A DNA stretch of 64,000 nt from a virus. Below are positions 3,534 through 64,000 of this stretch, in pieces. Location of the stretch: positions 1-64,000 of IMG/VR virus record IMGVR_UViG_3300045988_139474; one strand, 5' to 3'. Position numbers and translations under genes: made by a program. The notes under the pieces were generated by a model. The model ran no database searches. It had not been told where the DNA came from and saw nothing but the letters and a program-made list of their open reading frames with translations. Each line of letters starts with the position of its first letter. Position 1 is the first letter of the stretch.

Positions 3534-3559
3534 ATAAAATCCTAGTGACAGGGTGTTGA

Positions 3560-3596
3560 TACCTTATATTCTCAACAACCAATCTTAATTTTTCGC
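3560..3596 (-). promoter_or_regulatory. class I phage promoter motif
   Basis: Minus strand GAAAAATTAAGATTGGTTGTTGAGAATATAAGG, ~55 nt upstream of the ligA ATG. Confidence 0.6.
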
Positions 3597-28415: not shown

Positions 28416-28439
28416 GCAGTCTCCTTAAGGGTGCTGTTA

Positions 28440-28472
28440 CCATAATATCTCAACAACCAATCTTAATTTTTA
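28440..28472 (-). promoter_or_regulatory. class I phage promoter motif
   Basis: TAAAAATTAAGATTGGTTGTTGAGATATTATGG. The TAA stop of 28463..29140 lies inside the motif. Confidence 0.6.
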
Positions 28473-34200: not shown

Positions 34201-34236
34201 TCTTTCATCGCTGAGCAAAAACATTTTATCCTCCAA
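31228..34236 (-). CDS. compact RNA polymerase beta-prime (RpoC) homologue
   Basis: 1002 aa, colinear with E. coli RpoC: Zn ribbon (ENIFGPEHDYTCSCG...CEVCGV...RYGHIEL), GKTVDFSGRSVI...ELFKP, NRAPSLH...APFNADCDGDTM (Mg site NADFDGD), bridge helix SGYLERQLVNLCRD, trigger loop GVMAGTSTGEPLNQSGLRGKHTSG. Confidence 0.9.
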   Translation of the reverse strand: MEDKMFLLSDERIRELSHGEVINMGKYNFNYKHPKPIPDGLYAENIFGPEHDYTCSCGHHNPRAKKSDTILTCEVCGVDYVKAEERSKRYGHIELNCHYINPLFLKTFAELIDVTPETLQAVSLGEVNLELEENTAGALYGLDGKRYCLIIDDSPELKGGISGLYDLLERNIDCVETLRFSYAGVSEKYQKAGYNLLSFINSTVVVTPPDARPLRRADEKIFYDETNLIYSRLIRESSKLAALMSSDSLTPEQIQVVKSMTSCVVQKMINIQFIEGGEFGNAKLIPRIEKLKGKEGSLPRGALLGKTVDFSGRSVILSAPDMPINSVGIPYAMLLELFKPDIIHWLTQKHRKEGTPSIKAFRKAQAQVKRLAPDTMEAIEGVVKDEYIILNRAPSLHMYSVMAFQVIPVSGKAIHMPPAAMAPFNADCDGDTMSTHRHISDEACQELKEVVSFERNLLSAAAWDKVSTSPGHEQIVGSWLLTRALAEEPEEVKFIGLAKEALTRYDEGLLAFDDWIIVKTTDGQRFKTNVGALVHWELTDILPTQVLDKKGVKKYILELCRKYGNDAHKYLTKLQRLWFRTSTKFGLSLAYDDVKKSAKQQALIDEVKALPKDMGFDERIKAWDTNINKAVKDWFESTDRNSSMIAMANSGARVTPVQVRQMIVSKGLLTSMQGGLEEPIPEALSEGLPVLSYIRTCGPARRGLAMNSFMVPASGYLERQLVNLCRDLNITTHDCKAEKGIELESSKAEGKVLAEPVGDLKRGTILYKHMLKDLPKTVVVRSPIMCEHDNGLCAVCCGLNPATQDFYRLGTGIGVMAGTSTGEPLNQSGLRGKHTSGSVTLADLEYTVGNAIADFIKATGAQATSFLDIASSEAKPATSFNDLPYDQSAKAVLMELHRIFDESGIDIYTTLLEVIVRGLSDVSVLSNGQSFLRSRGFNDPNPKFRTVVDSIAQNPSILKRLGFGWARQALENSVKNADGYQHLPVEKLMMGKLIHDCDRKEV

Positions 34237-44914: not shown

Positions 44915-44978
44915 TTCATTATACACAAAGAACGATAAGGCCGAAAAACGCATTCACGAAGAAATTATTTTTCGGCCA
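44915..44978 (-). promoter_or_regulatory. class II promoter-like repeat (sigma70-like, perfect TATAAT)
   Basis: Minus strand GAATGCGTTTTTCGGCCTTATCGTTCTTTGTGTATAATGAAC, upstream of the ThyA-fold gene. Overlaps hairpin GGCCGAAAAA..TTTTTCGGCC, which may terminate dcd. Confidence 0.5.
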
Positions 44979-44983
44979 GTTAG

Positions 44984-51857: not shown

Positions 51858-51935
51858 TGGTGGGTGCCGCAGGACTCGAACCTGTCTGCCTACCGTTTAT
51901 GAGACGGCTGCTCATACCTCATGAGCTTGACACCC
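51858..51935 (-). tRNA. tRNA with anticodon CAT (elongator Met or Ile2), CCA encoded
   Basis: Minus strand folds as a cloverleaf: GGGTGTC AA GCTC ATGAGGTAT GAGC A GCCGT CTCATAA ACGGT AGGCAG ACAGG TTCGAGT CCTGC GGCACCC A CCA. 7-bp acceptor, T-loop TTCGAGT. One A-C mismatch in the T stem, and A instead of U at position 8. Confidence 0.8.
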
Positions 51936-52406: not shown

Positions 52407-52435
52407 GGTGTTTCCTTAAAAGTGCTATTCATAAG

Positions 52436-52466
52436 CTGATATTCCATCAGCCAATCTTAATTTTTA
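52436..52466 (-). promoter_or_regulatory. class I phage promoter motif
   Basis: TAAAAATTAAGATTGGCTGATGGAATATCAGC, upstream of 52029..52406. Confidence 0.6.
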
Positions 52467-52669
52467 ATTGACCACTTCTGCTCAAGAACTAAGGCGCACA
52501 GCCCAAGCATACGGTCGGTTGTCGTCTTGAGATAAACAAGTTTTCCGCTAGGATAAGCATACAAGTCACCTGTTTCTTGAATGCTTAACACTGTTGCTTG
52601 AATGCCGTATGAGTCAGACACTACTTGAGTGCCCTCTCGCAGTTCATCAATCCTTAGCATTGCCGTCAT
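52457..52669 (-). CDS. hypothetical small protein
   Basis: Start placed at ATG 52669 (or 52660), overlapping the end of the upstream gene. Its stop lies inside class I promoter 52436..52466. Confidence 0.5.
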   Translation of the reverse strand: MTAMLRIDELREGTQVVSDSYGIQATVLSIQETGDLYAYPSGKLVYLKTTTDRMLGLCALVLEQKWSIKN

Positions 52670-53345: not shown

Positions 53346-54275
53346 CTATCGTTTATGCTTGATAAGTATTCGTTTGTAGATTTCTTTACCGCCAATCGTA
53401 ACAGCCATATCAATATCCTCCGCCCAACCTTTAGGACGGCCATGGTTGTTCGAACAGCCAATCACTTCAAATTGGTCGGGATTATGTTTGAGAAAGAATG
53501 TAATAGGTACACCCATCACGCCATCATAGTCATGCGGGATGTTAGCAACTTTAGATACCTCAATAGCATCATAGTTGTCGTACTTCGGATGAGTTTCAGG
53601 GCTGTAGGCTTGTTGAAGAACCAACTTCTCAGGCCGTTTAGCATGGTCTAGGTTAGTGAACCAACTAACATTGCCTAGACTTCGCCACTTTCGGCCTTCC
53701 TCATCTTGACGATAACGTGTTGCTTTCGGCTCGTAGTAATCAGGCACTAAGAACTCCATATCATTCTTATTCGCACCTGCCCACATCTTATTGTCTCGCA
53801 ACAATTGAAAGATTCCATTATATGCAAAGGCATTCTGGTTACCAATTATCAAGAACTTCTTGTTATATTCAACCAATTGCGCTACATATTCCCGAAACAG
53901 AGAAAATGGCGGATTGGTTACAACAATGTCCGCTTGTTTCAGCAACTCGACGCACTCATCGCTGCGAAAGTCTCCGTCACCTTTCAACGGCTCGATTACC
54001 GCATTGCCCTCACCCCAGTATTCCGCCCGAACACCGTGCTCAGAATTTTCAGTTTTGTAACCGCTCGCAATCAGCTTCTTCAAGCCCAGCTGTTTGAAGT
54101 TGTCGAAGAAGTAACGAAAGAAGTTGCTAGCATTCGGGTCATCGCAATTGCAGTAAACAACTTTGGCCTTGAAATGTTGTTTGTAATGCTGCAATTCCTT
54201 TTCAATATCCGACAGCTGAGTGTAAAATTCATCATTCTCGTTTACTTTGGCTGCGTTGAGGAATTTATTAGTCAT
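53346..54275 (-). CDS. N6-adenine DNA methyltransferase (EcoRI-methylase-like family)
   Basis: N-terminal NDEFYTQLSDIEKEL and catalytic motif IV VVTNPPFSLF. Confidence 0.8.
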   Translation of the reverse strand: MTNKFLNAAKVNENDEFYTQLSDIEKELQHYKQHFKAKVVYCNCDDPNASNFFRYFFDNFKQLGLKKLIASGYKTENSEHGVRAEYWGEGNAVIEPLKGDGDFRSDECVELLKQADIVVTNPPFSLFREYVAQLVEYNKKFLIIGNQNAFAYNGIFQLLRDNKMWAGANKNDMEFLVPDYYEPKATRYRQDEEGRKWRSLGNVSWFTNLDHAKRPEKLVLQQAYSPETHPKYDNYDAIEVSKVANIPHDYDGVMGVPITFFLKHNPDQFEVIGCSNNHGRPKGWAEDIDMAVTIGGKEIYKRILIKHKR

Positions 54276-54335
54276 ACCAAATCCCTTGTGTGTTCATAGT
54301 GGCTTCCTTTCTTGTTTCCTGCGGTTGTTCCGCTT

Positions 54336-54402
54336 CTCACAATACACAAAGAACGAAAGGGCGCAAAAGCGCATTTATTTTAAAATATTTTCGATTTTTC
54401 TA
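54336..54402 (-). promoter_or_regulatory. class II promoter-like repeat
   Basis: AAATGCGCTTTTGCGCCCTTTCGTTCTTTGTGTATTGTGAG (TTGCGC-16-TATTGT), upstream of the methyltransferase gene. Confidence 0.45.
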
Positions 54403-54467
54403 TAAGTCGTTGTTTTGCTTAAGAAGAAAGTTTATTCAGGCTTCAGTCTCTGCTCTTGACTGAACCC

Positions 54468-54535
54468 ACTCACAATACACAAAGCACCGTGAGATGAAAA
54501 AGCGCATTTAGCGGAAAATATTTTTCGATTTTCTT
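54468..54535 (-). promoter_or_regulatory. class II promoter-like repeat
   Basis: AAATGCGCTTTTTCATCTCACGGTGCTTTGTGTATTGTGAG. Second copy, 130 nt upstream of the first. Confidence 0.45.
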
Positions 54536-54590
54536 GCAGCATTTTCGGAGCGGTCGGAGGGCTGGGTAGAGGGGACAGCATGCACTGCTA

Positions 54591-54765
54591 ATTTGCAATA
54601 TGAATCTTGTAACGGTTGGGATTCCGTACATAAAGACAAGATTTTGACTAAAAATTTCCTTGCGAAAACAATCGACTATCCACGAAATATACGATTTCAA
54701 TGTCATAGATGTGATACACAATATACACACAAGTATTATATATCTAATAATTAATAAAACAGACA
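54591..54765 (+). repeat. ~170-bp repeat unit U1 (plus orientation)
   Basis: TTGCAATATGAATCTTGTAACGGTTGGGATTCCGTACATAAAG..GATTTTGACTAAAAATTTCC..CTATCCACGAAATATACGATTTCAATGTCATAGATGTGATAC, then AT-rich TATTATATATCTAAT. Confidence 0.85.
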
Positions 54766-54968
54766 CTCACCCCAATATCCGTGAGACTGCTACAGCCATG
54801 AGAGTGAAATCAGTCATTCATCCTTCTGCTGAGTCTCTCTTCTTACAATCATGAGCCCAAGCAAGGATTCCTCCGACCGAAAACAAGCATACACTGAGAT
54901 TGAAACAAGGACTGTTCTGCTTGCGTTGTGATGATTGAGCAAGCTAGAACTGAAACCAGTCAAGCAGT
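54766..54968 (+). ncRNA. candidate non-coding transcript L1 downstream of U1
   Basis: No credible ORF. Shares blocks (ACAGCCATGAG, CATCCTTCTGCTGA, GACTGTTCTGC.TGCGT, CTCCGACCG) with the minus-strand leaders downstream of U4 and U5. Confidence 0.3.
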
Positions 54969-55170
54969 CATGAATCTTGAGGCGTGAGCTACTGATTTGA
55001 AAACTGAAGCCTGTAGGGAACAGGAATCGGAACATAAATACAGGATTTTGGCTAAAAATTTCCCTGATTTATTAGAAACTTATCCACGAAATATACGATT
55101 TCAATGTCATAGATGTGATACAAATAGATAACACACAAGTATATATAGATTATAGAAAGAAAACAGACAC
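54969..55170 (+). repeat. ~170-bp repeat unit U2 (plus orientation)
   Basis: ..GGAATCGGAACATAAATACAGGATTTTGGCTAAAAATTTCCCTGATTTATTAGAAACTTATCCACGAAATATACGATTTCAATGTCATAGATGTGATAC, then TATATATAGATTAT. Confidence 0.85.
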
Positions 55171-55310
55171 TGATATTCTTCTGCTGCACACTCACTCAAC
55201 TAAGGAATCAGACGGCCTAAAGACTGAAATCAATCATCATGAAAGATTCTTCTCAATCCTGCTGAAGCATGAAAACAGCCCTGCTGTGTTACCAGAGGGC
55301 TGATGTTTTC
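55171..55310 (+). ncRNA. candidate ~140-nt non-coding transcript L2 downstream of U2
   Basis: Runs from the AT-rich end of U2 to the terminator hairpin 55276-55302. Only a motif-less 62-codon ORF overlaps it. Confidence 0.3.
55271..55310. terminator. bidirectional terminator hairpin
   Basis: CAGCCCT (55276-82) pairs with AGGGCTG (55296-302). A T-run follows on both strands (plus ATGTTTTCGG; minus TTTTCATGC). It lies between convergent units. Confidence 0.6.
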
Positions 55311-55444
55311 GGCCTGATTAAAATTAAGCCAAAATTCCGCGAAAATTAGCTGGGTCGGGATTCTGCCCAAGTCGTTTACCATTCAAGGTCGCTAAAATCG
55401 AAACTAGACTGCTCTGCGCTTGAATACGGCTGTGAAGCTTAAAA

Positions 55445-55951
55445 TTAGCGACTTAAGAATTCTCTGCTGGAGGCCTGTTTGGCTTCGTCTAGCAACTTGT
55501 ACGCCAATTTTCGGCCTGCTGTACTAATGGCCAGCTTGACGGTCGGTGCGAGATTGGGTTCATATGCTCCGTCCATAGTCTTGATGTAGCAGATTCTGAA
55601 ATTCAACTGTTGATTAGCAGCTGTCTGTCTCAAGATACTTTCAAATGCTGGCGGGGTCATGATTTCATACACCGACAAGACGATTGACCGCAACAACTCT
55701 GCATTCGTCTCATCCAGCCGTACATTCAACAATTCCTGGGGCAACTGGATGTATCTGTCCAAGTCCAGCGGTCGGATACCGCAGGGGATGTTAATCAGAT
55801 TGCTTTCAGGCAACAGCTTGTTGTATTCCTCAATTGATGAAAACAGCTTGGCGGATAGCCTGTTCTGCCAATAGCGTGATGATTTCATGTAGTGCAGCTG
55901 CTCTTCTGAAAGCTCAGCCCATTGTTCCTTGACGGGTCTCAATAACGTCAT
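55445..55951 (-). CDS. hypothetical protein
   Basis: 168-aa ORF. Last gene before the bidirectional terminator 55271..55310. Confidence 0.7.
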   Translation of the reverse strand: MTLLRPVKEQWAELSEEQLHYMKSSRYWQNRLSAKLFSSIEEYNKLLPESNLINIPCGIRPLDLDRYIQLPQELLNVRLDETNAELLRSIVLSVYEIMTPPAFESILRQTAANQQLNFRICYIKTMDGAYEPNLAPTVKLAISTAGRKLAYKLLDEAKQASSREFLSR

Positions 55952-56253
55952 GATTCCTCCCTCCCAAAATTGGGGTGACGCAATCTTCTTGGGACATTGT
56001 ATCTCGGAGCAAACTGAGGGTCACCAACAGCAACAGCCGTCCAGTATCCGTTGCGCTGAACTATCTGGTATTTGCAACCTAGCTCAACATCGCCAAATCG
56101 GCCAGCTAGAAACTCGAATAGCAACTGGTGAGCTTTAGTCATAGCTTGAGGTGTCGTAACGTTAGGAACAGCCGATATAGCCCGATAGCCGTCAAGTAGC
56201 TTGACTTCTGTATCGGGGTCTATCTCAACCGTCATAATCTCGTGAAACAGCAT
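55948..56253 (-). CDS. hypothetical protein
   Basis: Start moved to ATG 56253 (MLFHEIMTVE; SD AAGGAG). Confidence 0.65.
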   Translation of the reverse strand: MLFHEIMTVEIDPDTEVKLLDGYRAISAVPNVTTPQAMTKAHQLLFEFLAGRFGDVELGCKYQIVQRNGYWTAVAVGDPQFAPRYNVPRRLRHPNFGREES

Positions 56254-56263
56254 GTACGACTCC

Positions 56264-56428
56264 TTACTGGCGGTTGTGTTGTTTCCATAGTGCAAACATA
56301 TCATCCCATGAACCTAATTCCATGAGCAATACGCTGAATTCAACTGGCTTACCGTCAATCAGGTACATGCCAGGACATGTTCTGTTCAGGTGTTCGTTGA
56401 ATTGGGTTGTTTGATTTGCGTTCATCAT
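56264..56428 (-). CDS. hypothetical small protein (54 aa)
   Basis: Hand-translated MMNANQTTQFNEHLNRTCPGMYLIDGKPVEFSVLLMELGSWDDMFALWKQHNRQ. ATGA overlap with the upstream stop. Confidence 0.45.
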   Translation of the reverse strand: MMNANQTTQFNEHLNRTCPGMYLIDGKPVEFSVLLMELGSWDDMFALWKQHNRQ

Positions 56429-56880
56429 TTGCCTCCTAAAGATTGAATGGCCTGGTTGAAGTCGATAGCTAGCTGTACGGCCTTAACAACTAGCTCCTTG
56501 TTAGTCATCCTGCTGTACTCACCTGAGGTAACCATGCTATTGAGCAAGACATTAGCCCTTGACTCAACAGACTTGTCAGACGGTAGGATAGCGGTATTGT
56601 AATCAATCTGACTAGCAGCCCAGATAGTCTCAATCTGAGCATGCTTGAAAGAGATAGGCTGGCCTGAATAGCTCTTGCCTGTCTTCTCACGAATCTTGAA
56701 GACACCATAGCAGTAGCAATCATCAATGCTAATCTGATTGACGGCCAGTATGCAGTCTGAACCTGCTAACTGGACGAAGAACCATGCACCGTGACTACAA
56801 GTCATATACTTCCAAGTGCTGAAATCTCTGGCTGCTGTTCCCTCGTCTGGGACAGTCGTGATTCTGTTAACAACTTGCAT
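56425..56880 (-). CDS. hypothetical protein
   Basis: 151-aa ORF in a tight operon. Confidence 0.7.
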   Translation of the reverse strand: MQVVNRITTVPDEGTAARDFSTWKYMTCSHGAWFFVQLAGSDCILAVNQISIDDCYCYGVFKIREKTGKSYSGQPISFKHAQIETIWAASQIDYNTAILPSDKSVESRANVLLNSMVTSGEYSRMTNKELVVKAVQLAIDFNQAIQSLGGK

Positions 56881-56881
56881 T

Positions 56882-57130
56882 TCAGCCTCCTTTCGTCCAG
56901 TTATCCTGTTCTGGATGATATGGAATCTTTTTCCTGAGCGGGCCAGGGGCAGTAGGTTGAGTTGACTTACGCGGCAACTGCTTAACCACTAGGCCAAGAT
57001 GCTTCTGCATTTTATGCATCTGCTCATACAACTCGTCAATTTCCTGACGTTGCTCTCTTACTTGACGGCGCAAGCTTCTCAGCTCAATATCTATCGACTT
57101 CAGGTCAAATTCTAATTCTGACTGTTTCAT
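56882..57130 (-). CDS. small coiled-coil protein
   Basis: Start moved to ATG 57130 (MKQSELEFDL). Heptad-rich, Arg/Gln-rich helix. Confidence 0.6.
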   Translation of the reverse strand: MKQSELEFDLKSIDIELRSLRRQVREQRQEIDELYEQMHKMQKHLGLVVKQLPRKSTQPTAPGPLRKKIPYHPEQDNWTKGG

Positions 57131-57144
57131 CTTCAGCCTACCTT

Positions 57145-58641
57145 TCAATTAACGCGTTCGTGTATCGTCTTGAATTTTACAATCAGCCCATTATCGGCCT
57201 TGAAATGTCTCGGCTTAATCCATGTCATAGCAGCTGTAGCCAAATTATTGAACAGCAGAATCTCCATGACTACCTTGCCTAGCTCTAGTGTCGCTAAAGC
57301 AAACTGTTTGTCTTTCTCACGCTTCATCTCAATCAGATGAAAGGTCTTTTCGGCCTTTAGCTCTTCATAAATCTCATGCTGCAACTTAGTGCCTGGAACT
57401 TTCGGAGTGCGTTGCAAGGCTTCTTTCAAGTATGATTGAGTCGGTAATGTCGCATAGCCCTCAACCGTGATATTGACACTCGGCACTTCGATATATGGCT
57501 GAGGCTCTGCAAAAGGCTCAGAAACCGTTTTTGGCTTATAGAAGCCGTTAGCGTCAACGCCGTATCCCGACAACTCATAGTATGGCGAAGGCGTTTTGAG
57601 CTTATCCTCGTCTCGTTTTGACAGGATAAATCGGATTACTTCCAATTCTGCTTTTAGTCGGTAGGCGTTCATATAAACCGCTTTGATACCGTCAAAATCA
57701 TTCGGCTTCAAGTCTTCTTGACTGACGATATCAAGCCCGCACAGAGGGATATGTACTTCATCATCACGCACCTTGTACACATACCCATTCTCATCCAGAT
57801 AAGGCAGCAATTCCTTGCTTGTAACCAATGTCGGCATATTCAGTTTGCCGTCTCGGATAATCGACAGATTGCGATAAACACGGACAACATGTTTCTTGCC
57901 GTTAGGTTGAGTAAGGATAGCGTCAGCTGCATACATCAGATTGAGGTTAGCGCGTGAACGATTCGGCACGATTTCAACACGGTACAGTTTGTCTCGGACA
58001 ATATCAACTGTTTCACCCTGCCAGTCGGTCGTTTCGGCCTTAGCTCGCTGAGTTATCACTTTTGACTTGTAGGGGTTCACCAATGCCTTATGCTCAATAA
58101 TAGCAGCCATGAGGTTCATGAGTGTCTTCTTGTTTGAGTAAGCCAGCACTTTATCTTCGCAAGGCTTTTCGGCTTCCTCTTCGCTTTGAGTATCACCCAA
58201 GATAGCTTCAATCGCCTTATCGGGATTCTGCAATGCTTCTGAGCTCAACACGAAATTAGCTAAGTCTTTGCGACGCAGATTGTAGGCGCAAACATTAGCA
58301 GCTGAAACAGGTCTGCGTTTGAAGATAGCAACAGCAATCTTACGGATGACGCTATCAGGCACATCTTTACAATTCATGTAAACAGCTTCAGGCGCACCCA
58401 ACAGGCTTGAGAAAGACTTGCCCTTGTAATTGCGACTGCGGTATTGACGCGGAATCAGAAACAATTTGGCAGTATCTGACTGAGCCAAGTCTTTGAGGTC
58501 AGTAGCAAATTCCATTTCATCTAGGTCAATGCCTGAAATGCTACTGTCTGTTGTTTGCAGTTTGAATCGGGTATCAGCATCCATTAGGACAGCTTCAAAC
58601 CGTACACCTGAAAGCTGTATCAGGAAGAGTGTTGGGTTCAT
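57145..58641 (-). CDS. hypothetical protein (498 aa)
   Basis: Long ORF behind class I promoter 58672..58703. No recognisable motif. Confidence 0.75.
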   Translation of the reverse strand: MNPTLFLIQLSGVRFEAVLMDADTRFKLQTTDSSISGIDLDEMEFATDLKDLAQSDTAKLFLIPRQYRSRNYKGKSFSSLLGAPEAVYMNCKDVPDSVIRKIAVAIFKRRPVSAANVCAYNLRRKDLANFVLSSEALQNPDKAIEAILGDTQSEEEAEKPCEDKVLAYSNKKTLMNLMAAIIEHKALVNPYKSKVITQRAKAETTDWQGETVDIVRDKLYRVEIVPNRSRANLNLMYAADAILTQPNGKKHVVRVYRNLSIIRDGKLNMPTLVTSKELLPYLDENGYVYKVRDDEVHIPLCGLDIVSQEDLKPNDFDGIKAVYMNAYRLKAELEVIRFILSKRDEDKLKTPSPYYELSGYGVDANGFYKPKTVSEPFAEPQPYIEVPSVNITVEGYATLPTQSYLKEALQRTPKVPGTKLQHEIYEELKAEKTFHLIEMKREKDKQFALATLELGKVVMEILLFNNLATAAMTWIKPRHFKADNGLIVKFKTIHERVN

Positions 58642-58671
58642 AATTCATCACCTATCTGTCGGGTTGTAGGT

Positions 58672-58703
58672 TGTTATCTTTCAACAGCCAGTGGTAATTT
58701 TTA
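58672..58703 (-). promoter_or_regulatory. class I-like promoter motif (degenerate)
   Basis: TAAAAATTACCACTGGCTGTTGAAAGATAACAAC, upstream of 57145..58641. Confidence 0.4.
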
Positions 58704-58979
58704 AATCAGTCGTTGTTGTCCTGCTTTCAAGTACCAAGTCAGTACTCCTGCAGACACGCAGAGGAAAGACTCAACGGCTCGTTGTTTTGAGAGTGTAGCG
58801 AAGTTAGCAGGGTCGCAGAACATGATTTCAGGCTCATCTGCCTCAGGGTATTTCAGCTTCACAAGAAACAAGTTATCCTCAAGTTCATGTTCAGAAAAGA
58901 CTTCAGTCATTTCAGGTAATGTTTGCTCAACCATCAATTGATGTTTGAAGCGTGGTAGCAGTGTATTGTTCATTCGCAT
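58701..58979 (-). CDS. hypothetical protein
   Basis: 92-aa ORF behind class I promoter 59012..59042 and repeat unit U3. Confidence 0.65.
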   Translation of the reverse strand: MRMNNTLLPRFKHQLMVEQTLPEMTEVFSEHELEDNLFLVKLKYPEADEPEIMFCDPANFATLSKQRAVESFLCVSAGVLTWYLKAGQQRLI

Positions 58980-59011
58980 GTTTGTTATTTCCTTGTCTGG
59001 TTATTCATGAT

Positions 59012-59042
59012 TTATAGTCTCAGCAACCAATTATAATTTTTA
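59012..59042 (-). promoter_or_regulatory. class I phage promoter motif (variant)
   Basis: TAAAAATTATAATTGGTTGCTGAGACTATAAATC, upstream of 58701..58979. Confidence 0.55.
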
Positions 59043-59169
59043 TCAGCCCTGTCAGCACAGGGTTCAGTCGGTCGGATAGCTGAGGATTGAGATTTCAGTT
59101 TCATGGCTGTTAGTCGATTAAGTGGTGATTGAGGTCTGATTGTGAGGGCTGAGGAATGATTGTTTTCCG

Positions 59170-59335
59170 TCTAGTTAATATAATATAGAACGTTGTATTT
59201 GGGTTTGGTATCACATCTATGAGTTTGGAATTGGATATTTCGTTGATAACTCGTTGAAATAAAGCAGGAATTTTTAGCCAAAATCTTGGTTTTATGTACG
59301 GAATCCCAACTATTACAAGATTCAGTTTCCAATTC
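59170..59335 (-). repeat. ~170-bp repeat unit U3 (minus orientation, most diverged)
   Basis: The reverse complement aligns with U1/U2: ..GAATCTTGTAATAGTTGGGATTCCGTACATAAAACCAAGATTTTGGCTAAAAATTCC..TTATCAACGAAATATCCAATTCCAAACTCATAGATGTGATAC. Confidence 0.8.
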
Positions 59336-59350
59336 CTGCTATTGCGTTGC

Positions 59351-60169
59351 TTAAAGCTCTGAATTAGTCATGCTTGAGTCGATGTAATTCAGCACAGGCC
59401 GTCTCAGCTTCTCACTCACTGTACCAGAAGTCATCTCAGCTTGCTGTCCTGGTACAGGCTTGTCGCTTGAGGGCTTCTTGTAGTTGCGTTTGTTCTTCTG
59501 AGCTCGTTTGAACTCTTCCTTATCAATCCCTAGCTTCTTCTGCAAGTCCTCTTGAACTTCACCCCATGTAAGGGACTTACCCTCAGCCAGATAGCCGTCA
59601 TAGATTTTAGCATAAGTCTTAGACAGGCCTAAAGCAGGGTCAGACACTTTGATTTCTCGCAACAGTTTATCCTTGTCAACCAGGCCTGCTTTCATGTAGG
59701 TTACGAAGTCTGTCTGTGATTGAAGCTTCTGAGGAGCAGCAACCAGCCACATGAGTGCAAGGTCTAATGGCTGAGCAACTGGGACTTTGACTCCAAACAT
59801 CATGCGCGGTTTAGCTCGGTGAACGGCTGAGGCGTAAGGGTCAAAGCCGATATTGAACAGCAGGTCATAAGTCTTAGTCTTACCACCGCCTTGAGCAGCT
59901 TTCATCTGATACTGCCCAGCACCTACTTCCTTGAAGTCAAATTCGTCTGCTAAGGCTTCCATGACTTCATCTTCGTCTGAGATGACTAGCAAGTCTAGGT
60001 CTTGAGTTGCTCTCGGTTTGGGTGCATATTCGTTGTAGGCTAATCCACCCACGATACAGTACTCAAAGTCATTCTCAGTCATGACTGCTATCAGTCGCTT
60101 GAACTGGGACTTGAAGTCTTTGTAGCCTAATGCTTCATATGCTTTGAGTAGCTCGGCACTTCTGGACAT
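59351..60169 (-). CDS. AbiEii-like nucleotidyltransferase-fold protein with basic C-terminal tail
   Basis: CIVGGLAYNEYAPKPRATQDLDLLVI fits the same GG.A...R.T.D.D signature as 28463..29140. Lys-rich tail (KRAQKNKRNYKKPSSDK). Confidence 0.55.
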   Translation of the reverse strand: MSRSAELLKAYEALGYKDFKSQFKRLIAVMTENDFEYCIVGGLAYNEYAPKPRATQDLDLLVISDEDEVMEALADEFDFKEVGAGQYQMKAAQGGGKTKTYDLLFNIGFDPYASAVHRAKPRMMFGVKVPVAQPLDLALMWLVAAPQKLQSQTDFVTYMKAGLVDKDKLLREIKVSDPALGLSKTYAKIYDGYLAEGKSLTWGEVQEDLQKKLGIDKEEFKRAQKNKRNYKKPSSDKPVPGQQAEMTSGTVSEKLRRPVLNYIDSSMTNSEL

Positions 60170-60256
60170 ACATTTCCTTTCAATTTTGAAAACTGGCTAA
60201 AATCGCCAAAATTAACGCGGTTAGAACGCTGCTTGGGCGAATGCTTGCTCAACTCG

Positions 60257-60640
60257 TTAAAAGTTGCTCTCGGTCGCTGCTAGGCCGTCTATTACGCGTT
60301 TGCGGTAAATCCTCATCACTCGGTCTTGAACAACGTCTCCGTGACAGGGATGAGGGCTACACCAGCAGAAAAGTCGGATATCATAGCCTTTCAGCAATTC
60401 TTCAACTAATCTACTGATAATCTTGTATTCTCTTGATTGGGTATCAGCCAGCTGCTTATCAAGATATTCAGCATACAAAGGGATACACTTGCCTCTTCCA
60501 TGTTCTTCAACAGTGAAAGGATTTCCTAAGCCTAATGCTTCATAAGGCGGTGTTGAGCCCCTTCCTATGTAATACTGTTTAACTTGAGGATTCTGGTCGT
60601 AGCTCATCTTGCGGATATTTTCAACTGTAATCCTGCTCAT
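60257..60640 (-). CDS. DUF4326-like protein
   Basis: YYIGRGS...LGNPF...YAEYL...RLFCWCSPHPCHGDVV fits the DUF4326 pattern (YvGR...GNPf...L.C.C.p..CHgdvl). Confidence 0.6.
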   Translation of the reverse strand: MSRITVENIRKMSYDQNPQVKQYYIGRGSTPPYEALGLGNPFTVEEHGRGKCIPLYAEYLDKQLADTQSREYKIISRLVEELLKGYDIRLFCWCSPHPCHGDVVQDRVMRIYRKRVIDGLAATESNF

Positions 60641-60659
60641 ATTGTCCCTCCTTGAGTCT

Positions 60660-60689
60660 TGATATCTGTTCAGCCAATTCTAATTTTTC
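60660..60689 (-). promoter_or_regulatory. class I phage promoter motif (variant)
   Basis: GAAAAATTAGAATTGGCTGAACAGATATCAAG, upstream of 60257..60640. Confidence 0.55.
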
Positions 60690-60905
60690 AGTCAGTTCAG
60701 TCTCAGGTTTCGTGTTAACATGACTGATTGAGAGCTCAGTCAGCAGAAGGATGTATGATTGTTTTCATCTCTAGGCTGACCAATCATCAGTCAGCCAGAC
60801 GGTCTAAGCTAGGGATTTTCGGCTCATGACTGTTAGTTTCCTTGTTCTTCTGATTCTAGCCTGCTACTCACACACGCAGGCAGAACAGTCTCATGTTTTT
60901 CATTC

Positions 60906-61000
60906 TCATGGTTTGAGATTCTGTTTTCAATTTCATGATTTCAGCCTCATGGCTTGAGATTCTGTTTTCAATTTCATGATTTCAGTCTCATGGCTGTTTG
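60906..61000. repeat. 41-nt direct tandem repeat, ~2.3 copies
   Basis: TCATGG(T/C)TTGAGATTCTGTTTTCAATTTCATGATTTCAG(C/T)C at 60906-60946 and 60947-60987. A partial third copy starts at 60988. Confidence 0.85.
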
Positions 61001-61044
61001 TTAGATTGAGGATTTCTATGCATGACTGTTCTCAAGTCTCAAAG

Positions 61045-61212
61045 ATTAATTTATTAGTTATATAATACCTGTGGTGTTGATATTGTATCACATCTATGAC
61101 ATTGAAATCGTATATTTCGTGGATAACTCGTTGTAACTCAATAGAAATTTTTAGACAAAATCTTGGACTTATGTACGGAATCTTGGCGGGTACAGAATCT
61201 AGATTGCAGTTT
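61045..61212 (-). repeat. ~170-bp repeat unit U4 (minus orientation)
   Basis: Reverse complement: ..GATTCCGTACATAAGTCCAAGATTTTGTCTAAAAATTTC..TTATCCACGAAATATACGATTTCAATGTCATAGATGTGATAC, then GGTATTATATAACTAAT. Confidence 0.85.
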
Positions 61213-61424
61213 CTGTATCCCAGCAGCAAGATTCATCAGTCAATCATTGATTTCCCTCTAATTGCTCAAGCAAGGATTTCAGTTTGTTCCCTTCCTGCTG
61301 ACTCAGGCTCCATACGGTCGGAGAAAGCCTCAGCAGTCTCAAATTTCTGTTTTTCATGCTCATGGCTGTAAAGTCTCAATTCAGGGCTTGGTTGAGTGTT
61401 GAAGAGGGTGTCAGGGTTGTTATT

Positions 61425-61592
61425 CTTCTATTAGATAATATATAATCTGTGGTTGTGTATTTGTATCACATCTATGACATTGAAATCGTATATTTCGTGG
61501 ATAAGTTTCTAATAAATCAGGGGAATTTTTAGACAAAATCCTGTCTTTATGTTCCGATTCCCAGCCGTTACAAGATTCATATTGCAAATCAG
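61425..61592 (-). repeat. ~170-bp repeat unit U5 (minus orientation)
   Basis: Reverse complement: TTGCAATATGAATCTTGTAACGGCTGGGAATCGGAACATAAAGACAGGATTTTGTCTAAAAATTCCCCTGATTTATTAGAAACTTATCCACGAAATATACGATTTCAATGTCATAGATGTGATAC. Confidence 0.85.
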
Positions 61593-61594
61593 CA

Positions 61595-61631
61595 ATAAAA
61601 AAGCCCTGCTAGCATGAAACTAACAGGGCTG
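61595..61631 (-). terminator. rho-independent terminator
   Basis: AGCCCTG-loop-CAGGGCT followed by TTTTTTATTG on the minus strand, after 61653..61943. Confidence 0.75.
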
Positions 61632-61652
61632 GGGTTGGGGTATGACTGTAGG

Positions 61653-61943
61653 CTAACGGAACAGCTCAGGGTGAGCTATCTCAAGGTCGATACAAGTGTT
61701 GCGGTAGTCAGGGTCAATGAAGGCATCTACTGACTCATTGCCCTCTTCGTCCACGATTGTCCGTTTCAAGCCTAAGACTGCTGAGTGTGTATTATTCATG
61801 TAATACTCTTCCATTACAATCAGCTTCTCACCATCACGGGATTCCACTTGGTCTTGAGAAAACTCGCAGTCAAGATTGCCGGCATATCGCTCTAACTCGG
61901 AAAGCTCGCATTCTACCATCACGTCATCTAATTGCTCATCCAT
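61653..61943 (-). CDS. small, very acidic protein
   Basis: 96 aa, roughly a quarter Asp/Glu. Followed by terminator 61595..61631. Confidence 0.65.
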   Translation of the reverse strand: MDEQLDDVMVECELSELERYAGNLDCEFSQDQVESRDGEKLIVMEEYYMNNTHSAVLGLKRTIVDEEGNESVDAFIDPDYRNTCIDLEIAHPELFR

Positions 61944-61959
61944 GCTTACGCTCCGTTGA

Positions 61960-63084
61960 TTATTCAGGTTTACCTTCTACAACTTTACCAGAGTGTACAC
62001 CCAATACGGTATAAGCGCAAGTGCGGGCTTTCTGGCCGTTGTAGTCGGTCGGTACAGACACGAAGTCCTCAGGAGCAACAGACACCTCAAGGATTACGCT
62101 GTCTCGGCCACTGCCATATTGCTCAGCGTATTCCAACGCGCCGACATGTAAGCCATGAGAACAGGTCTGATCTGGGTCATCGTTGACTTCTTCACGCGGC
62201 ATGGTAATAGTTGCGCCGATTTTGTTCTTAATCTTGTTTGAGTACAAGTCATACAAGTCTGGTCGTACAGCCTTGTAAGCCAAGACTGAGCCGTCTTCAC
62301 GCAATTTGATACAGTTATGCTCCAAGAACATGAACAGGGTCTCAAACACGCGTTTGCTAGGGTTCTTCGCCAGACGGTTGAAGAAGGCAATCACTCGGTC
62401 GGAATCCTCAGGCTGAGAAGCCAGTACAGGTTTGATAGTGCTGTAAACTTCTTCAGGGACTTTCTTGTCTTGAATATACAATACGCCGTCTTTTACAACC
62501 CAGCCATCAATTCCTAAGCTGTCCGCAATTTCAGCGACTGTAGCGGATTCAAAGTAAACAGCCAATTGCTCAGGTTTGAAGTTTTCACTAGCAACCAATT
62601 CTTCAATCTCTTTGAATGATGGTTCAGCAGTCGTAAAGACTTTAGTGGCGATGTCTGAGCCTAATTCACGGAACAGGTACACGGTTGAGGTGAACATGCT
62701 GTAGGAATATTTCGGCTTTGGTGCGGCCTTTTTAGCCTTAGATTTTGCCTTCGGTTTTGCTTTAGATTTGGGCGCGGATTTGTCCTTGGTATTCCCTACA
62801 GAAGCCGTATTTTTGGCCTCAGAAGCTGAACGTTTTGTTGGGGCTTTACCAGCCACTTTTTTCGATTTAGTTGATTTTCGGGCTTTTGTAGGGCGGTCTG
62901 CTTTCGGTTTGTCGGGTGCTGGGGTATCAGCTGTTTCAGGGTTTTGTCGGGCTAACTCGGCATAACGGCGCAGGGAGCGGTCTGAAACGCCAGACTGCTC
63001 AACAAATTCTTTCTTGGTACCAGCTTCGACAGCCGCAATGTAATCACGGCCAAGCTGGATGCGTTGTTCAGTTGTTAATTTCAT
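61960..63084 (-). CDS. putative DNA-binding protein (N-terminal HTH, Lys/Ala/Pro-rich linker, conserved C-terminal domain)
   Basis: Start moved to ATG 63084 (MKLTTEQR). HTH-like SGVSDRSLRRYAELARQ; histone-H1-like KAKPKAKSKAKKAAPKPK linker. Confidence 0.6.
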   Translation of the reverse strand: MKLTTEQRIQLGRDYIAAVEAGTKKEFVEQSGVSDRSLRRYAELARQNPETADTPAPDKPKADRPTKARKSTKSKKVAGKAPTKRSASEAKNTASVGNTKDKSAPKSKAKPKAKSKAKKAAPKPKYSYSMFTSTVYLFRELGSDIATKVFTTAEPSFKEIEELVASENFKPEQLAVYFESATVAEIADSLGIDGWVVKDGVLYIQDKKVPEEVYSTIKPVLASQPEDSDRVIAFFNRLAKNPSKRVFETLFMFLEHNCIKLREDGSVLAYKAVRPDLYDLYSNKIKNKIGATITMPREEVNDDPDQTCSHGLHVGALEYAEQYGSGRDSVILEVSVAPEDFVSVPTDYNGQKARTCAYTVLGVHSGKVVEGKPE

Positions 63085-63156
63085 GGTGTTTTGTCCTTTG
63101 ATCAAGAGGATTATTCAACAGCCTCAATCTACAACAGACTGAGGCTCAGAATTCAG

Positions 63157-63375
63157 TTATGCGGGCTTGCAGATAGGAAACCAACGGTCATGTTTGGTGT
63201 CGTAGAATTTACCGTTATTCTGGAAGAACATAGCATTCGTTACAGCCAGAGGCGCATTCAGTTCACGGCGGTCTTTCAATTTTGCTAACGCCCAAGCTTT
63301 GAATTCATCGGTCAGGTCAGACACTTTGAGATTGAAGCTTTCGGCGATTTGGCGGAGGGTTGTTTGCGGTTTCAT
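63157..63375 (-). CDS. hypothetical small protein
   Basis: Start moved to ATG 63375 (MKPQTTLRQI; SD AAGGAAA), downstream of class I promoter 63420..63446. Confidence 0.6.
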   Translation of the reverse strand: MKPQTTLRQIAESFNLKVSDLTDEFKAWALAKLKDRRELNAPLAVTNAMFFQNNGKFYDTKHDRWFPICKPA

Positions 63376-63419
63376 ATTGATTTCCTTTAAGTAGGTTGAG
63401 ATACCATGTTTATAAGCTG

Positions 63420-63446
63420 ATATCTCAACCGCCAATCTTAATTTTC
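63420..63446 (-). promoter_or_regulatory. class I phage promoter motif
   Basis: GAAAATTAAGATTGGCGGTTGAGATATCAGC, upstream of 63157..63375. Confidence 0.6.
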
Positions 63447-63923
63447 TGCTTTCTTAGTGACTTCTAAGCCGTGTTTGTCCATGTAGGTGTTGAAGCTTTC
63501 GGGCAGGTGTAGTCGGAGGACATTTTCAGGCTTCTTCACGTATTCTTTCAGCCATTCGGTCGCTTCAGCTACTGTTTTCTCAAAGTCGAAGCCAATCAAT
63601 TCGTCACGCATCGCAGTATGGTTTAGGCCGTCTGAATAGCAAGTCAGCATGAATTTGCTTCGCAGCAGAATGCTAAGATTGCCACGGATATGCCAAACAT
63701 CAATAGGCAGCTCAGGGACTAACTTCAGTAGCAGGTCTCCTGCATAGAAGCCTTTTGATTTTACAAACTCACGGTACTCGTTTGCATAAGGCTTCAAGTC
63801 AATATCCCGCAGATGTTTACCACCAATCTTAATCAGGGCTTCATGCATAGTCTTAGGGAATTCAATTTGAGTGAATCCCAAGTCTTTCAGCACTCTAGCT
63901 TTATCCCAGTCATATCTCGACAT
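63438..63923 (-). CDS. hypothetical protein; may extend upstream beyond the window
   Basis: The frame stays open from 63923 to 64000 (..NNRSEYIRDTKRFFFFAPSETKQ-MSRYDW) and no SD precedes ATG 63923. Its stop TAA lies inside the class I motif. Confidence 0.6.
   Translation of the reverse strand: MSRYDWDKARVLKDLGFTQIEFPKTMHEALIKIGGKHLRDIDLKPYANEYREFVKSKGFYAGDLLLKLVPELPIDVWHIRGNLSILLRSKFMLTCYSDGLNHTAMRDELIGFDFEKTVAEATEWLKEYVKKPENVLRLHLPESFNTYMDKHGLEVTKKAEN
63625..63636 (+). other. exact 12-nt AG-type DNA uptake sequence AGGCCGTCTGAA
   Basis: Plus strand AGGCCGTCTGAA, inside 63438..63923. Confidence 0.7.
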
Positions 63924-64000
63924 CTGCTTAGTTTCAGACGGCGCAAAGAAGAAAAAGCGTTTTGTGTCTCGGATGTACTCTGACCTGTTATTGCCGCAGT

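What the first reader, a model, noticed from the sequence alone, without database searches (positions are those of the whole stretch)
54766..55310. Two ORF-less plus-strand units converge on the only bidirectional terminator in the window: candidate phage sRNAs
Every credible gene is on the minus strand, yet U1 and U2 point rightward. Downstream of U2 there are ~140 nt with no credible ORF. They end at the hairpin CAGCCCT...AGGGCTG (55276-55302), which is followed by a T-run on both strands. The same hairpin would therefore also stop the minus-strand operon ending at 55445. Downstream of U1 there are ~200 nt homologous, in inverted orientation, to the leaders behind U4 and U5. Shared blocks include ACAGCCATGAG, CATCCTTCTGCTGA, GACTGTTCTGC(C/T)TGCGT, CTCCGACCG and TTGAGCAA. 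A family of five related non-coding RNAs (two free-standing, three as mRNA leaders) is a plausible reading.
Basis: inference. Interest (0 to 1): 0.65.

Follow-up and report, generated by a model that had tools for sequence, protein, structure and literature searches.

The report
Gene-less early promoter modules in phage
Two extra, gene-less copies of this uncultured (probably Neisseria) phage's repeated early-promoter-plus-leader module point against the neighbouring operon and should make short non-coding RNAs, a pattern repeated in all related phages but of still unknown purpose.

Summary
U1 (54578-54750) and U2 (54982-55160) are plus-strand copies of a ~160-nt unit that also sits, on the minus strand, upstream of genes at 59.2, 61.1 and 61.5 kb. 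The quoted shared blocks and the hairpin at 55276-55302 are all present. No plus-strand ORF with a ribosome-binding site exists in the 1.17-kb gap.

The five copies belong to a much larger family: 78 units in 18 related metagenomic contigs. The unit behaves as a promoter. Conservation stops at an AT-rich TATA block, and in two loci an SD+ATG follows about 35 nt later.

Downstream "leaders" are non-coding mosaics. They carry a near-universal AGCCAUGAG box and a covarying hairpin with a GUGUGAUG loop. All 61 hairpin hits lie 65-315 nt downstream of a same-strand unit or at a locus edge.

Gene-less units facing a convergent gene recur at three or more genome junctions. Orthologous loci hold 2-4 copies here.

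The reading "family of non-coding RNAs" is therefore partly supported. A specific base-pairing sRNA is unlikely, because the sequences evolve fast and are globally unstructured. The hairpin is a better terminator for the minus strand than for the plus strand. Function remains inferred, and no expression data exist.

The parts
54578..54750 (+). U1: orphan copy of the ~160-nt promoter unit. Conserved blocks are GAATCTTGTAAC..GGATTCCGTACATAAAGACAAGATTTTGnCTAAAAATT and TTATCCACGAAATATACGATTTCAATGTCATAGATGTGATAC, followed by the TATTATATA block at 54734-54742. Inferred transcription start is near 54746.
   Evidence: nhmmer 54591-54748, E 6e-43
54751..54985 (+). U1 leader: non-coding. It has a C-rich, G-poor 5' part, the AGCCATGAG box at 54792-54802 and the family hairpin (model R1) at 54912-54953. 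No terminator precedes U2.
   Evidence: (mini-ORF frameshifted in orthologues)
54982..55160 (+). U2: second orphan copy of the promoter unit, with its AT-rich TATA block at 55138-55155. Inferred transcription start is near 55157.
   Evidence: nhmmer 54994-55152, E 1e-42
55161..55275 (+). U2 leader: a short non-coding variant. It lacks the AGCCATGAG box and the R1 hairpin. It carries the CAGACGGCCT block (a near-DUS on the minus strand at 55208-55217) and CCTGCTGAAGCATGAAA.
55276..55302 (.). Shared hairpin CAGCCCTgctgtgttaccagAGGGCTG, flanked by GAAAAC (55270-55275) and GTTTTC (55305-55310). It is a good intrinsic terminator for the minus-strand operon that ends at 55445 and a weak one for the plus strand.
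55303..55444 (.). Conserved 140-nt spacer between the hairpin and the stop codon of the 168-aa gene. It contains AAAATTAAGCC-like boxes (11-nt period x2.6 at 55320-55348) that resemble the upstream box of the D1 promoter family but lie in plus orientation.
54336..54534 (-). Two copies of the D11 repeat (54336-54401 and 54469-54534; a third copy is at 44915-44980). They are probably promoters of the next leftward operon (methylase, dUTPase) and lie back-to-back with U1.
59183..59338 (-). U3: a unit upstream of the leftward operon that runs from the 92-aa gene to the 168-aa gene. Its ~200-nt leader (58980-59182) carries the AGCCATGA box and a D1-type promoter.
60641..61215 (-). U4 (61060-61215) with its ~420-nt leader to the DUF4326 gene. 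The leader holds two R1 hairpins (60850-60888 and 60765-60803) and a 41-nt x2.4 tandem with 14-nt periodic CATGAGACTGAAAT (60886-60995).
61216..61593 (-). U5 (61438-61593) with its leader, which runs straight into U4 (tandem promoters). It lies just downstream of the strong terminator at 61602-61630(-).

Best explanation
U1 and U2 are two orphan copies of the phage's multi-copy early-promoter module.

Each module has about 130 nt of conserved upstream DNA and an AT-rich -10-like block. A non-coding leader follows, built from shuffled short blocks. The polymerase, probably the host enzyme, would start just after the TATA block, near 54746 and near 55157.

U2 would give an RNA of about 150 nt that ends at or near the hairpin at 55276-55302. 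U1 has no terminator of its own, so it would read through U2 and give about 565 nt, or would be stopped earlier by Rho on its C-rich untranslated 5' part.

These RNAs are generic leader RNA, not tailored base-pairing regulators. Their most likely job is local. Strong rightward transcription meets the leftward early operon head-on at the shared hairpin. Together they mark the operon boundary. They keep leftward transcription out of the next, separately promoted operon (D11 promoters, methylase, dUTPase). Any read-through becomes antisense RNA to the 3' end of the convergent operon.

Shown: the module family, its promoter-like anatomy, the lack of coding capacity, the leader hairpin with covariation, and the recurrence and synteny of orphan convergent copies.

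Inferred: transcription itself, the start sites, the polymerase, and the boundary or antisense role.
For: Size of the family: 78 units in the window plus 34 loci from 18 contigs.

Promoter anatomy:
- Conservation runs about 150 nt and stops at a TATTATATA-type block.
- In L011 and L032 an SD+ATG of a 119-aa gene follows the core by 52-57 nt.
- U3 and U4 precede genes.
- Variation inside the unit is block-wise with no long-range covariation, so it acts as DNA.

Leaders are non-coding:
- No SD-preceded ORF exists.
- The AGCC-ATG mini-ORF is frameshifted by a 4-nt indel between the window and L019/L014.
- The 41-nt tandem is not a multiple of 3.

Leader hairpin:
- 61 hits in 336 kb on both strands. 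58 lie 65-315 nt downstream of a same-strand unit and the other 3 lie at locus edges.
- 94.5% of cells are paired and 4 pairs show double changes; 0 of 500 shuffles reach this.

AGCCATGA box: present once in 30-31 of 32 inter-unit leaders.

Orphan convergent units elsewhere: L003_8341 and four orthologous loci, the arrays of 4-5 units after the ParB gene in L006/L018/L033, and L008.

Synteny of the plus-strand array: 4 units in L019, 2 in L014, at least 3 in L012, and present in L022 and L028.

Hairpin conservation and stability.

Against a specific sRNA: fast, indel-rich evolution of the leaders compared with flanking genes.
Against: - No transcript data of any kind exist.
- The distance from the invariant GTGATA to the -10-like hexamer varies from 15 to 26 nt, and no fixed -35 exists. 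The polymerase and exact start are therefore unknown.
- About 130 nt of conserved upstream DNA is far more than a normal promoter needs and is unexplained.
- The plus-strand T-tract is weak, and at the ParB-side junction the terminator is one-directional. "Converging on a bidirectional terminator" is therefore not the general design.
- An insulating role is plausible but not demonstrated. Many phages manage without such barriers.
- Orphan leaders keep the hairpin and the box intact. That fits an RNA-level function at least as well as a purely transcriptional one.
Confidence: 0.4

Rival explanations
1. Trans-acting protein-binding RNA. The leader modules are binding sites for a host or phage factor. 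The modules are the GUGUGAUG-loop hairpin, the repeated CAUGAGACUGAAAU words and the C-rich 5' part. The factor could be an antiterminator loaded as at lambda nut, an RNA chaperone or RNase, or a defence protein. Orphan copies exist to raise the dose of this RNA early in infection, acting as a decoy or sponge.
For: - Orphan leaders keep the hairpin and box as well as gene-linked leaders do.
- Tandem ORF-less arrays of 4-5 modules exist.
- CATGAG is the most enriched hexamer in the leaders: 66 occurrences in 9.3 kb against about 2 expected from length alone.
- The U4 leader has a 14-nt periodic array of this word.
- Hairpin loop sequence is conserved while the stems covary.
Against: - No binding partner is identified and there is no Rfam match.
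- U2, one of the two RNAs in question, lacks both the box and the R1 hairpin.
- G.U versus A.C counts (8 versus 7) do not by themselves prove which strand folds.
- The hairpin pattern is not a host repeat. A genome scan gave scattered single hits in all phyla.
Confidence: 0.25
2. By-products without a function of their own. Recombination among the many repeated modules duplicates, deletes and inverts promoter-leader cassettes. U1 and U2 are tolerated leftovers.
For: - Copy number at this site varies from 2 to 4, and junctions fall in shared blocks such as CCTGCTGAAGCATGAAA.
- The region is less conserved than flanking genes and has many indels.
- Assemblies break at the units.
Against: - The orphan array is kept, in the same orientation and place, in genomes down to about 80% identity.
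- Orphan convergent units recur at three or more unrelated junctions.
- Their promoter cores are 100% conserved over 42-44 nt.
- Their leaders retain covarying hairpins.
Confidence: 0.15
3. A DNA-level element other than a promoter. The unit would be a binding array for a replication, partition or packaging protein, with a DnaA-box-like TTATCCACG next to an AT-rich unwinding block. Its direction relative to genes would then be incidental.
For: - About 130 nt of block-wise conserved DNA shows no RNA-type covariation.
- TTATCCACG matches 8 of 9 positions of the DnaA box consensus (from memory), followed about 55 nt later by a 20-25 nt AT block.
- Direct and inverted CAAGATT words are spaced about 21 nt apart.
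- Arrays sit just after the ParB-like gene in L006.
Against: - About 11 dispersed copies per genome, with tandem arrays, are odd for an origin or a pac site.
- Units sit directly upstream of SD+ATG in L011/L032 and upstream of genes at U3 and U4.
- Strand-specific leader features always follow in one orientation.
Confidence: 0.08
4. Micro-protein genes. The conserved AGCC-ATG-AGn-nTG-AAA box is the start of a translated mini-ORF (MRVKS..., MRLKS...). U1 would then not be ORF-less.
For: - The box holds an ATG in 54 of 61 leaders.
- The next codons give M-R/S-(L/V/M)-K-(S/N).
- In L011 the same ACAGCCATG is the real start of a 119-aa gene, with an SD.
Against: - No SD precedes the box in leaders.
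- ORF lengths of 5-49 aa look random, and sequences are unrelated after residue 5.
- Orthologues differ by a frameshift.
- Variation is at codon position 1, not position 3.
- U2 has no box.
Confidence: 0.05

Closest known systems
Tandem strong early promoters of lytic coliphages (T7 A1/A2/A3, T5 and T4 early promoters; from general knowledge)
   Same: - Several near-identical, very conserved promoters cluster at the start of early, hypervariable host-takeover genes.
- Conservation extends beyond the core hexamers.
- They are presumably read by the host polymerase.
   Different: - Here the conserved part is about 150 nt long and has no fixed -35.
- The copies are dispersed over a genome of about 140 kb.
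- Many copies have no gene downstream and face a convergent gene.
Convergent antisense RNAs at the 3' end of phage genes. Examples are lambda OOP RNA (from general knowledge) and the anti-late or antisense transcripts discussed for the N4-like phages LIT1 and LUZ7 (PMC9163698).
   Same: An ORF-less promoter fires against an oncoming operon. The product is a short non-coding RNA that can overlap the 3' end of the convergent transcript.
   Different: - If the U2 RNA stops at the hairpin, it overlaps the convergent mRNA only within the hairpin itself.
- The promoters are copies of the same module that drives the target operon.
- The arrangement occurs as arrays of 2-5.
Lambda nut sites (boxA plus the boxB hairpin in early leaders; from general knowledge)
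   Same: A small hairpin with a conserved loop and variable, covarying stem lies in the untranslated leader of every early transcript, next to C-rich rut-like RNA.
   Different: - The loops are 8-13 nt (GUGUGAUG), not a GNRA-like pentaloop.
- The stem is about 10 bp with a bulge.
- There are 1-3 copies per leader.
- No boxA and no N-like protein were identified.
Candidate intergenic phage sRNAs such as LUZ7 sRNA1-3 (PMC9163698)
   Same: Short, non-coding transcripts from a phage intergenic region, with their own start and terminator and unknown function.
   Different: The LUZ7 sRNAs are late, single-locus and experimentally seen. The RNAs here are predicted only, multi-copy and share a promoter module with early mRNAs.
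Correia repeat enclosed elements of Neisseria (PMC2649163)
   Same: Multi-copy elements of about 150 bp in the (probable) host genus that bring promoters and RNA hairpins to neighbouring genes.
   Different: The published Correia terminal repeat patterns have no match in the window at up to 3 mismatches. The units have no terminal inverted repeats.

Membership tests
Intrinsic (Rho-independent) terminator, bidirectional | G+C-rich stem with a short loop | tested here: met
   A 7-bp perfect stem CAGCCCT/AGGGCTG plus 3 inner pairs. Free energy is about -20 kcal/mol on the plus strand and -21.6 on the minus strand, z about -3. Conserved in L019, L014 and L022.
Intrinsic (Rho-independent) terminator, bidirectional | U-tract directly after the stem on both strands | tested here: inconclusive
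   Minus strand: UUUUCAUG(C/UUUAUU) directly after the stem. Plus strand: AUGUUUUCGG, which is 4 U offset by 2-3 nt and becomes AUAUUUCGG in L019. The site is not called by the consensus scan.
Sigma-70-type promoter | -10 hexamer like TATAAT | tested here: met
   TATTAT, TATATT or TATAAT in an AT-rich block of 20-25 nt in nearly all of the 61 distinct units.
Sigma-70-type promoter | -35 hexamer 16-18 nt upstream of the -10 | tested here: not met
   The only conserved candidate, GTGATA, lies 15-26 nt from the best -10. Only 19 of 61 units have a spacing of 16-18 nt.
Any described RNA family (Rfam 15) | Covariance-model match at the gathering score | tested here: not met
   Only tRNA-Met at 51861-51935 passes. 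Relaxed searches of 54200-55500 and 58900-61700 give only chance-level hits with E of 0.017 or more, mostly C/D-box models.
Structured small RNA | Fold more stable than shuffled sequence, and covariation | tested here: not met
   The whole U1 and U2 transcripts have z +0.31 and +0.26. Only the local R1 hairpin shows covariation.
Neisseria Correia repeat enclosed element | Terminal inverted repeat TATAG[CT]GGATTAA... | tested here: not met
   0 matches at up to 3 mismatches for two of the four patterns published in PMC2649163.
Lambda-type nut site | boxB hairpin (5-bp stem, pentaloop) with boxA upstream and an N-like protein | tested here: not met
   The hairpin geometry differs: a stem of about 10 bp with a bulge and a loop of 8-13 nt. 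boxA and an N-like protein were not searched systematically.
RNA anti-CRISPR (solitary CRISPR-repeat mimic) | Near-identity to a CRISPR repeat of the host | not testable with these tools
   No host genome is in hand. A scan of 185,579 species genomes with the hairpin pattern gave scattered single hits in unrelated phyla, and none in Neisseriaceae among the hits displayed. Variable stems argue against mimicry of one repeat.
Type III antitoxin (ToxI-like) RNA | Tandem near-identical repeats of about 36 nt next to a toxin gene | tested here: not met
   No tandem array lies in 54.3-55.4 kb except an 11-nt x2.6 A-rich box. The 41-nt x2.4 repeat is in the U4 leader.

The most novel reading that the evidence does not exclude
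These phages carry a new class of multi-copy genetic module: a ~150-nt promoter fused to a modular non-coding RNA. The RNA has a C-rich 5' part, an AGCCAUGAG box, CAUGAGACUGAAAU words and a covarying GUGUGAUG-loop hairpin. The orphan copies, arrays of 2-5 and about 11 modules per genome, would be dedicated genes for an abundant early RNA. That RNA would capture or load a host or phage RNA-binding factor, for example a defence nuclease, Rho, ProQ/Hfq or an antiterminator. This would be an RNA-based host-takeover device in phages of commensal Neisseria.
Probability: 0.2. Interest if true: 0.75.

Novelty: new variant of a known kind. Interest (0 to 1): 0.5.

Why it matters
If the orphan modules are transcribed, this phage group spends several strong early promoters on RNA that encodes nothing. 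It does so at conserved positions where transcription units collide.

That would give a clean natural system for two questions. The first is how lytic phages insulate temporal gene classes by convergent transcription. The second is whether they use abundant early non-coding RNA against the host.

The leader hairpin and box are also a new, easily searchable RNA motif, absent from Rfam. The unit is a precise marker for an uncultured lineage of phages of about 140 kb. These phages encode a single-chain beta'-like RNA polymerase and probably infect oral Neisseria, a host genus with almost no known lytic phages.

If the modules are mere duplication debris, the finding is ordinary.

Tried and rejected
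1. N4-like hairpin promoters read by a virion polymerase. I considered this when a 3484-aa ORF appeared in L001. PHROG and Pfam hits show it is a tail or receptor-binding protein, not a polymerase.

2. The unit as a protein gene. A TTG-started ORF of about 53 aa spans four of the five units. It is broken by TGA in U4 and in many relatives, and conservation is at the DNA level.

3. The unit as a structured RNA, or transcribed in reverse. Mutual information is confined to adjacent columns. The apparent CTTGT/ACAAG covariation fails in several units. No terminator lies at the far end.

4. Known RNA families: none. The weak C/D-box hits stem from UGAUGA and CUGA words.

5. Correia elements: no match.

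6. Hairpin as a copy of a host repeat or CRISPR repeat. The genome scan gave only scattered chance hits. The unit core has no match in 185,579 species genomes.

7. Similarity to known phages: none at the DNA level. Proteins are only 25-35% identical to E. coli IME392/EP_H11, Rhizobium and Ralstonia phages.

8. An invertible segment between the inverted units. The window, L019 and L020+L014 all have the same orientation, so there is no sign of inversion.

9. A conserved block CCAAGTCGTTTACC after the hairpin as a further repeat family. It is not widespread.

10. G.U versus A.C counts to fix the folding strand: 8 versus 7, not decisive.

Full report
**What is in the window.**

The window comes from a phage with no DNA-level relative among deposited phages.
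- All credible genes lie on the minus strand.
- The genes include a DNA polymerase, helicase, primase, thymidylate synthase, NAD-dependent ligase and a ParB-like protein. There is also a 1002-aa single-chain protein with Rpb1 (beta') domains.
- The right-hand end carries an rIIB-like gene, a DUF4326 gene and small genes of unknown function.
- An EcoRI-type methylase and a dUTPase lie left of the finding.
- A 1.17-kb gap (54276-55444) separates the methylase start from the stop of a 168-aa gene.

**Checking the observation.**

- The repeat search finds five copies of a ~160-nt unit. U1 (54578-54750) and U2 (54982-55160) are on the plus strand. U3 (59183-59338), U4 (61060-61215) and U5 (61438-61593) are on the minus strand.
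- The cores are 42-44 nt long and identical in four of the five copies.
- The hairpin CAGCCCT-N13-AGGGCTG at 55276-55302 folds at about -20 kcal/mol on the plus strand and -21.6 on the minus strand, with z close to -3.
- It is the only perfect-stem hairpin in the window with an A-run upstream and a T-run downstream.
- No plus-strand ORF of 8 aa or more with an SD-like motif exists in the gap.

**The unit is a promoter-like DNA element of a large family.**

- Pattern scans of viral and metagenome collections, followed by a profile search, give 78 units in the window plus 34 loci from 18 contigs. One contig is 141.8 kb long and holds about 11 dispersed units.
- In an alignment of 61 distinct units, conservation runs for about 150 nt. 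It includes the invariant stretches ACATAA, GATTTTG, AAAAAT, ACGAAAT and TCATAGATGTGATA.
- Conservation stops at an AT-rich block of the type TATTATATAnCTAATA.
- In L011 and L032 the SD and ATG of a 119-aa gene follow the core by only 52-57 nt. U3 and U4 precede genes. This anatomy is what one expects of a promoter that starts just after the TATA block.
- Variation inside the unit is block-wise. High mutual information is limited to neighbouring columns and there is no long-range covariation. The unit therefore works as DNA, not as folded RNA.
- A TTG-started ORF that spans four of the window's units is broken in U4 and in many relatives.
- Two things remain unexplained. The distance from the invariant GTGATA to the best -10-like hexamer varies from 15 to 26 nt, so there is no fixed -35. 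About 130 nt of conserved upstream DNA is also far more than a usual promoter needs.
- The window holds two other promoter-like repeat families. The D1/D2 family (AAAATTAAGATTGG-N4-TGAGATAT...GTATGAAC) has 17-19 copies, each 20-45 nt ahead of the SD and ATG of a minus-strand gene. The D11 family has three copies, two of them back-to-back with U1.
- The units thus look like one of three promoter classes. They sit ahead of the hypervariable early-type genes, whose proteins have no counterpart in the related contigs.

**The sequences downstream of units are non-coding RNA leaders with shared modules.**

- The first ~60 transcribed nucleotides are C-rich and G-poor (C 28-31%, G 11-15%).
- The box AGCCATGA occurs once in 30-31 of 32 inter-unit leaders and, in a slightly looser form, in 54 of 61 leaders overall. 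It lies a median of 93 nt after the core.
- The ATG in this box opens mini-ORFs of 5-49 aa that share only M-R-(L/V/M)-K-(S/N).
- These mini-ORFs lack an SD. They are frameshifted by a 4-nt indel between the window's U1 leader and its orthologues in L019 and L014.
- A 41-nt tandem repeat in the U4 leader is not a multiple of three.
- Coding is therefore unlikely.

**The leader hairpin.**

- The leaders carry a hairpin with the consensus YUCUGCYUGC-[GUGUGAUG-type loop of 8-13 nt]-GCARGC-(bulge)-AGAR. Alternative stems are GGCUGAC, UGCUUGAC, UGCCUGGU and UGACUGGCU.
- A covariance model built from 28 examples finds 61 hits in 336 kb on both strands. 58 of them lie 65-315 nt downstream of a unit on the same strand. 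The other three lie at locus edges, where the unit falls outside the fetched DNA.
- 94.5% of cells pair, four pairs change on both sides, and none of 500 shuffles reaches the observed covariation score.
- The count of G.U against A.C pairs (8 versus 7) does not by itself fix the strand. The exclusive co-orientation with units and the strand-asymmetric composition do.
- U1's leader has both the box (54792-54802) and the hairpin (54912-54953). U2's short leader has neither.
- Neither leader as a whole folds better than shuffled sequence (z +0.31 and +0.26).
- Rfam has no matching family.

**Orphan units are a recurrent design.**

- In orthologous loci the plus-strand array between the dUTPase/methylase block and the 168-aa gene is present with 4 units (L019), 2 units (L014) and at least 3 units (L012). 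It is also seen in L022 and at the start of the 141.8-kb contig (L028).
- The final hairpin is kept in L019, L014 and L022.
- The minus-strand U-tract (UUUUCAUGUUUAUU in L019) is kept better than the plus-strand one, which becomes AUAUUUCGG.
- Units with no gene downstream that face the 3' end of a convergent gene 220-540 nt away occur elsewhere. One sits between two co-directional genes in five loci (L003_8341 and its orthologues). Arrays of 4-5 units follow the ParB-like gene in L006, L018 and L033. Another case is in L008.
- At the ParB-side junction the terminator serves only the convergent gene, so the orphan transcripts would run on as antisense RNA.
- The non-coding region evolves faster (82-90% identity, many indels, module swaps) than the flanking genes (92-99%).

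**Interpretation.**

- The RNAs are generic, fast-evolving and unstructured apart from one local hairpin. A dedicated base-pairing sRNA is therefore unlikely.
- I favour a local role at confidence 0.4. Orphan early promoters fire head-on against the incoming operon and, together with the hairpin, mark the boundary to the next operon. Read-through gives antisense RNA.
- A trans-acting decoy or factor-loading RNA is the main rival (0.25). It fits the intact hairpins, the tandem arrays and the repeated CAUGAGACUGAAAU words.
- The other rivals are duplication debris (0.15), another kind of DNA element (0.08) and micro-ORFs (0.05).
- Transcription itself, the start sites and the polymerase are inferred, not shown.

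**Comparison with known systems.**

- The nearest analogues are the tandem strong early promoters of T7, T5 and T4 (general knowledge).
- Convergent antisense RNAs such as lambda OOP (general knowledge), and the antisense transcripts discussed for N4-like phages, are also close (PMC9163698).
- Lambda nut leader hairpins are a further analogue (general knowledge).
- Membership tests fail or are inconclusive for a canonical sigma-70 promoter (no fixed -35), for a bidirectional intrinsic terminator (weak plus-strand tract), for all Rfam families, and for Correia elements of Neisseria.
- I rate the finding as a new variant of a known kind.

**Host.**

- The Neisseria DNA uptake sequence GCCGTCTGAA occurs 5 times in the window against 0.08 expected.
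- The 12-mer AGGCCGTCTGAA occurs in 12 related loci.
- This AG-DUS dialect marks commensal species such as N. subflava, N. flavescens, N. mucosa and N. elongata (PMC3630211).
- Several contigs carry ids that I read, from memory, as Human Microbiome Project samples.

Noticed in passing
window 3196-3205(-), 35432-35441(-), 37351-37360(-), 63627-63636(+), 63933-63942(-); near-copy 55208-55217(-): The Neisseria DNA uptake sequence GCCGTCTGAA occurs 5 times against 0.08 expected. The AG-DUS 12-mer occurs in 12 related loci. The host is probably an oral commensal Neisseria. Leaders also hold DUS-like blocks (TCCGACCGnCTGAACCC, CCGTCTG in the 5' arm of the hairpin).
   Followed up: partly
window, 17-19 sites, e.g. 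3549-3596, 28427-28474, 52421-52468, 58997-59044, 63402-63449 (sense strand is minus): A second promoter-like repeat family, AAAATTAAGATTGG-N4-TGAGATAT..GTATGAAC, lies 20-45 nt ahead of the SD+ATG of most minus-strand genes. Its two half-motifs (AAAAATT, AAGATTGG) also occur, in swapped order, inside the 160-nt unit (AAGATTTTGGCTAAAAATT).
   Followed up: partly
window 44915-44980, 54336-54401, 54469-54534 (sense strand is minus): A third repeat family (D11) has three copies. They lie ahead of the thymidylate synthase gene and, in two tandem copies, ahead of the methylase/dUTPase genes, back-to-back with U1. It is probably another promoter class.
   Followed up: no
window 31228-34236(-): A 1002-aa single-chain protein has Rpb1 domains 1, 2, 4 and 5, so it is a beta'-like, YonO-type RNA polymerase. 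It is only 29-34% identical to proteins of E. coli phages IME392/EP_H11 and Rhizobium phages.
   Followed up: partly
window 53346-54275(-) versus L019 1942-1963: The EcoRI-type adenine methylase gene is present in the window, L005 and L014. It is precisely absent in L019, where the D11 promoters directly precede the dUTPase gene. It is an accessory, moron-like insertion.
   Followed up: partly
window 60886-60995(-): The U4 leader has a 41-nt tandem repeat (x2.4, 92% matches). A 14-nt periodic word CATGAGACTGAAAT (x7.7) underlies it.
   Followed up: partly
window 55320-55348(+): Three AAAATTA(A)GCC-like boxes (11-nt period) lie directly after the hairpin. They resemble the upstream box of the D1 promoter family but point rightward, against the 168-aa gene. 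They could be a plus-strand promoter element or a protein-binding site.
   Followed up: no
L001 427-10881(+): A 3484-aa ORF in the related contig lies divergent from two units. It has tail-fibre, receptor-binding and ILEI domains and is not an N4-type virion RNA polymerase.
   Followed up: yes
L001 start, L005 end, L012 end, L028 start, L004 end: Several related contigs begin or end inside a unit. One end is a 127-nt piece, which could reflect an assembler k-mer length (my guess; assembly parameters were not checked). The units break metagenome assemblies, so genome size and termini of this phage group are uncertain.
   Followed up: partly
window 55445-64000 versus L001, L003, L004, L006: Proteins encoded downstream of units in the more distant related contigs have no BLASTP match to the window's genes in this region. 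The middle genes, by contrast, are 85-100% identical. The early region is hypervariable.
   Followed up: partly
window 51858-51935(-): A phage-encoded tRNA-Met (CAU) gene.
   Followed up: no
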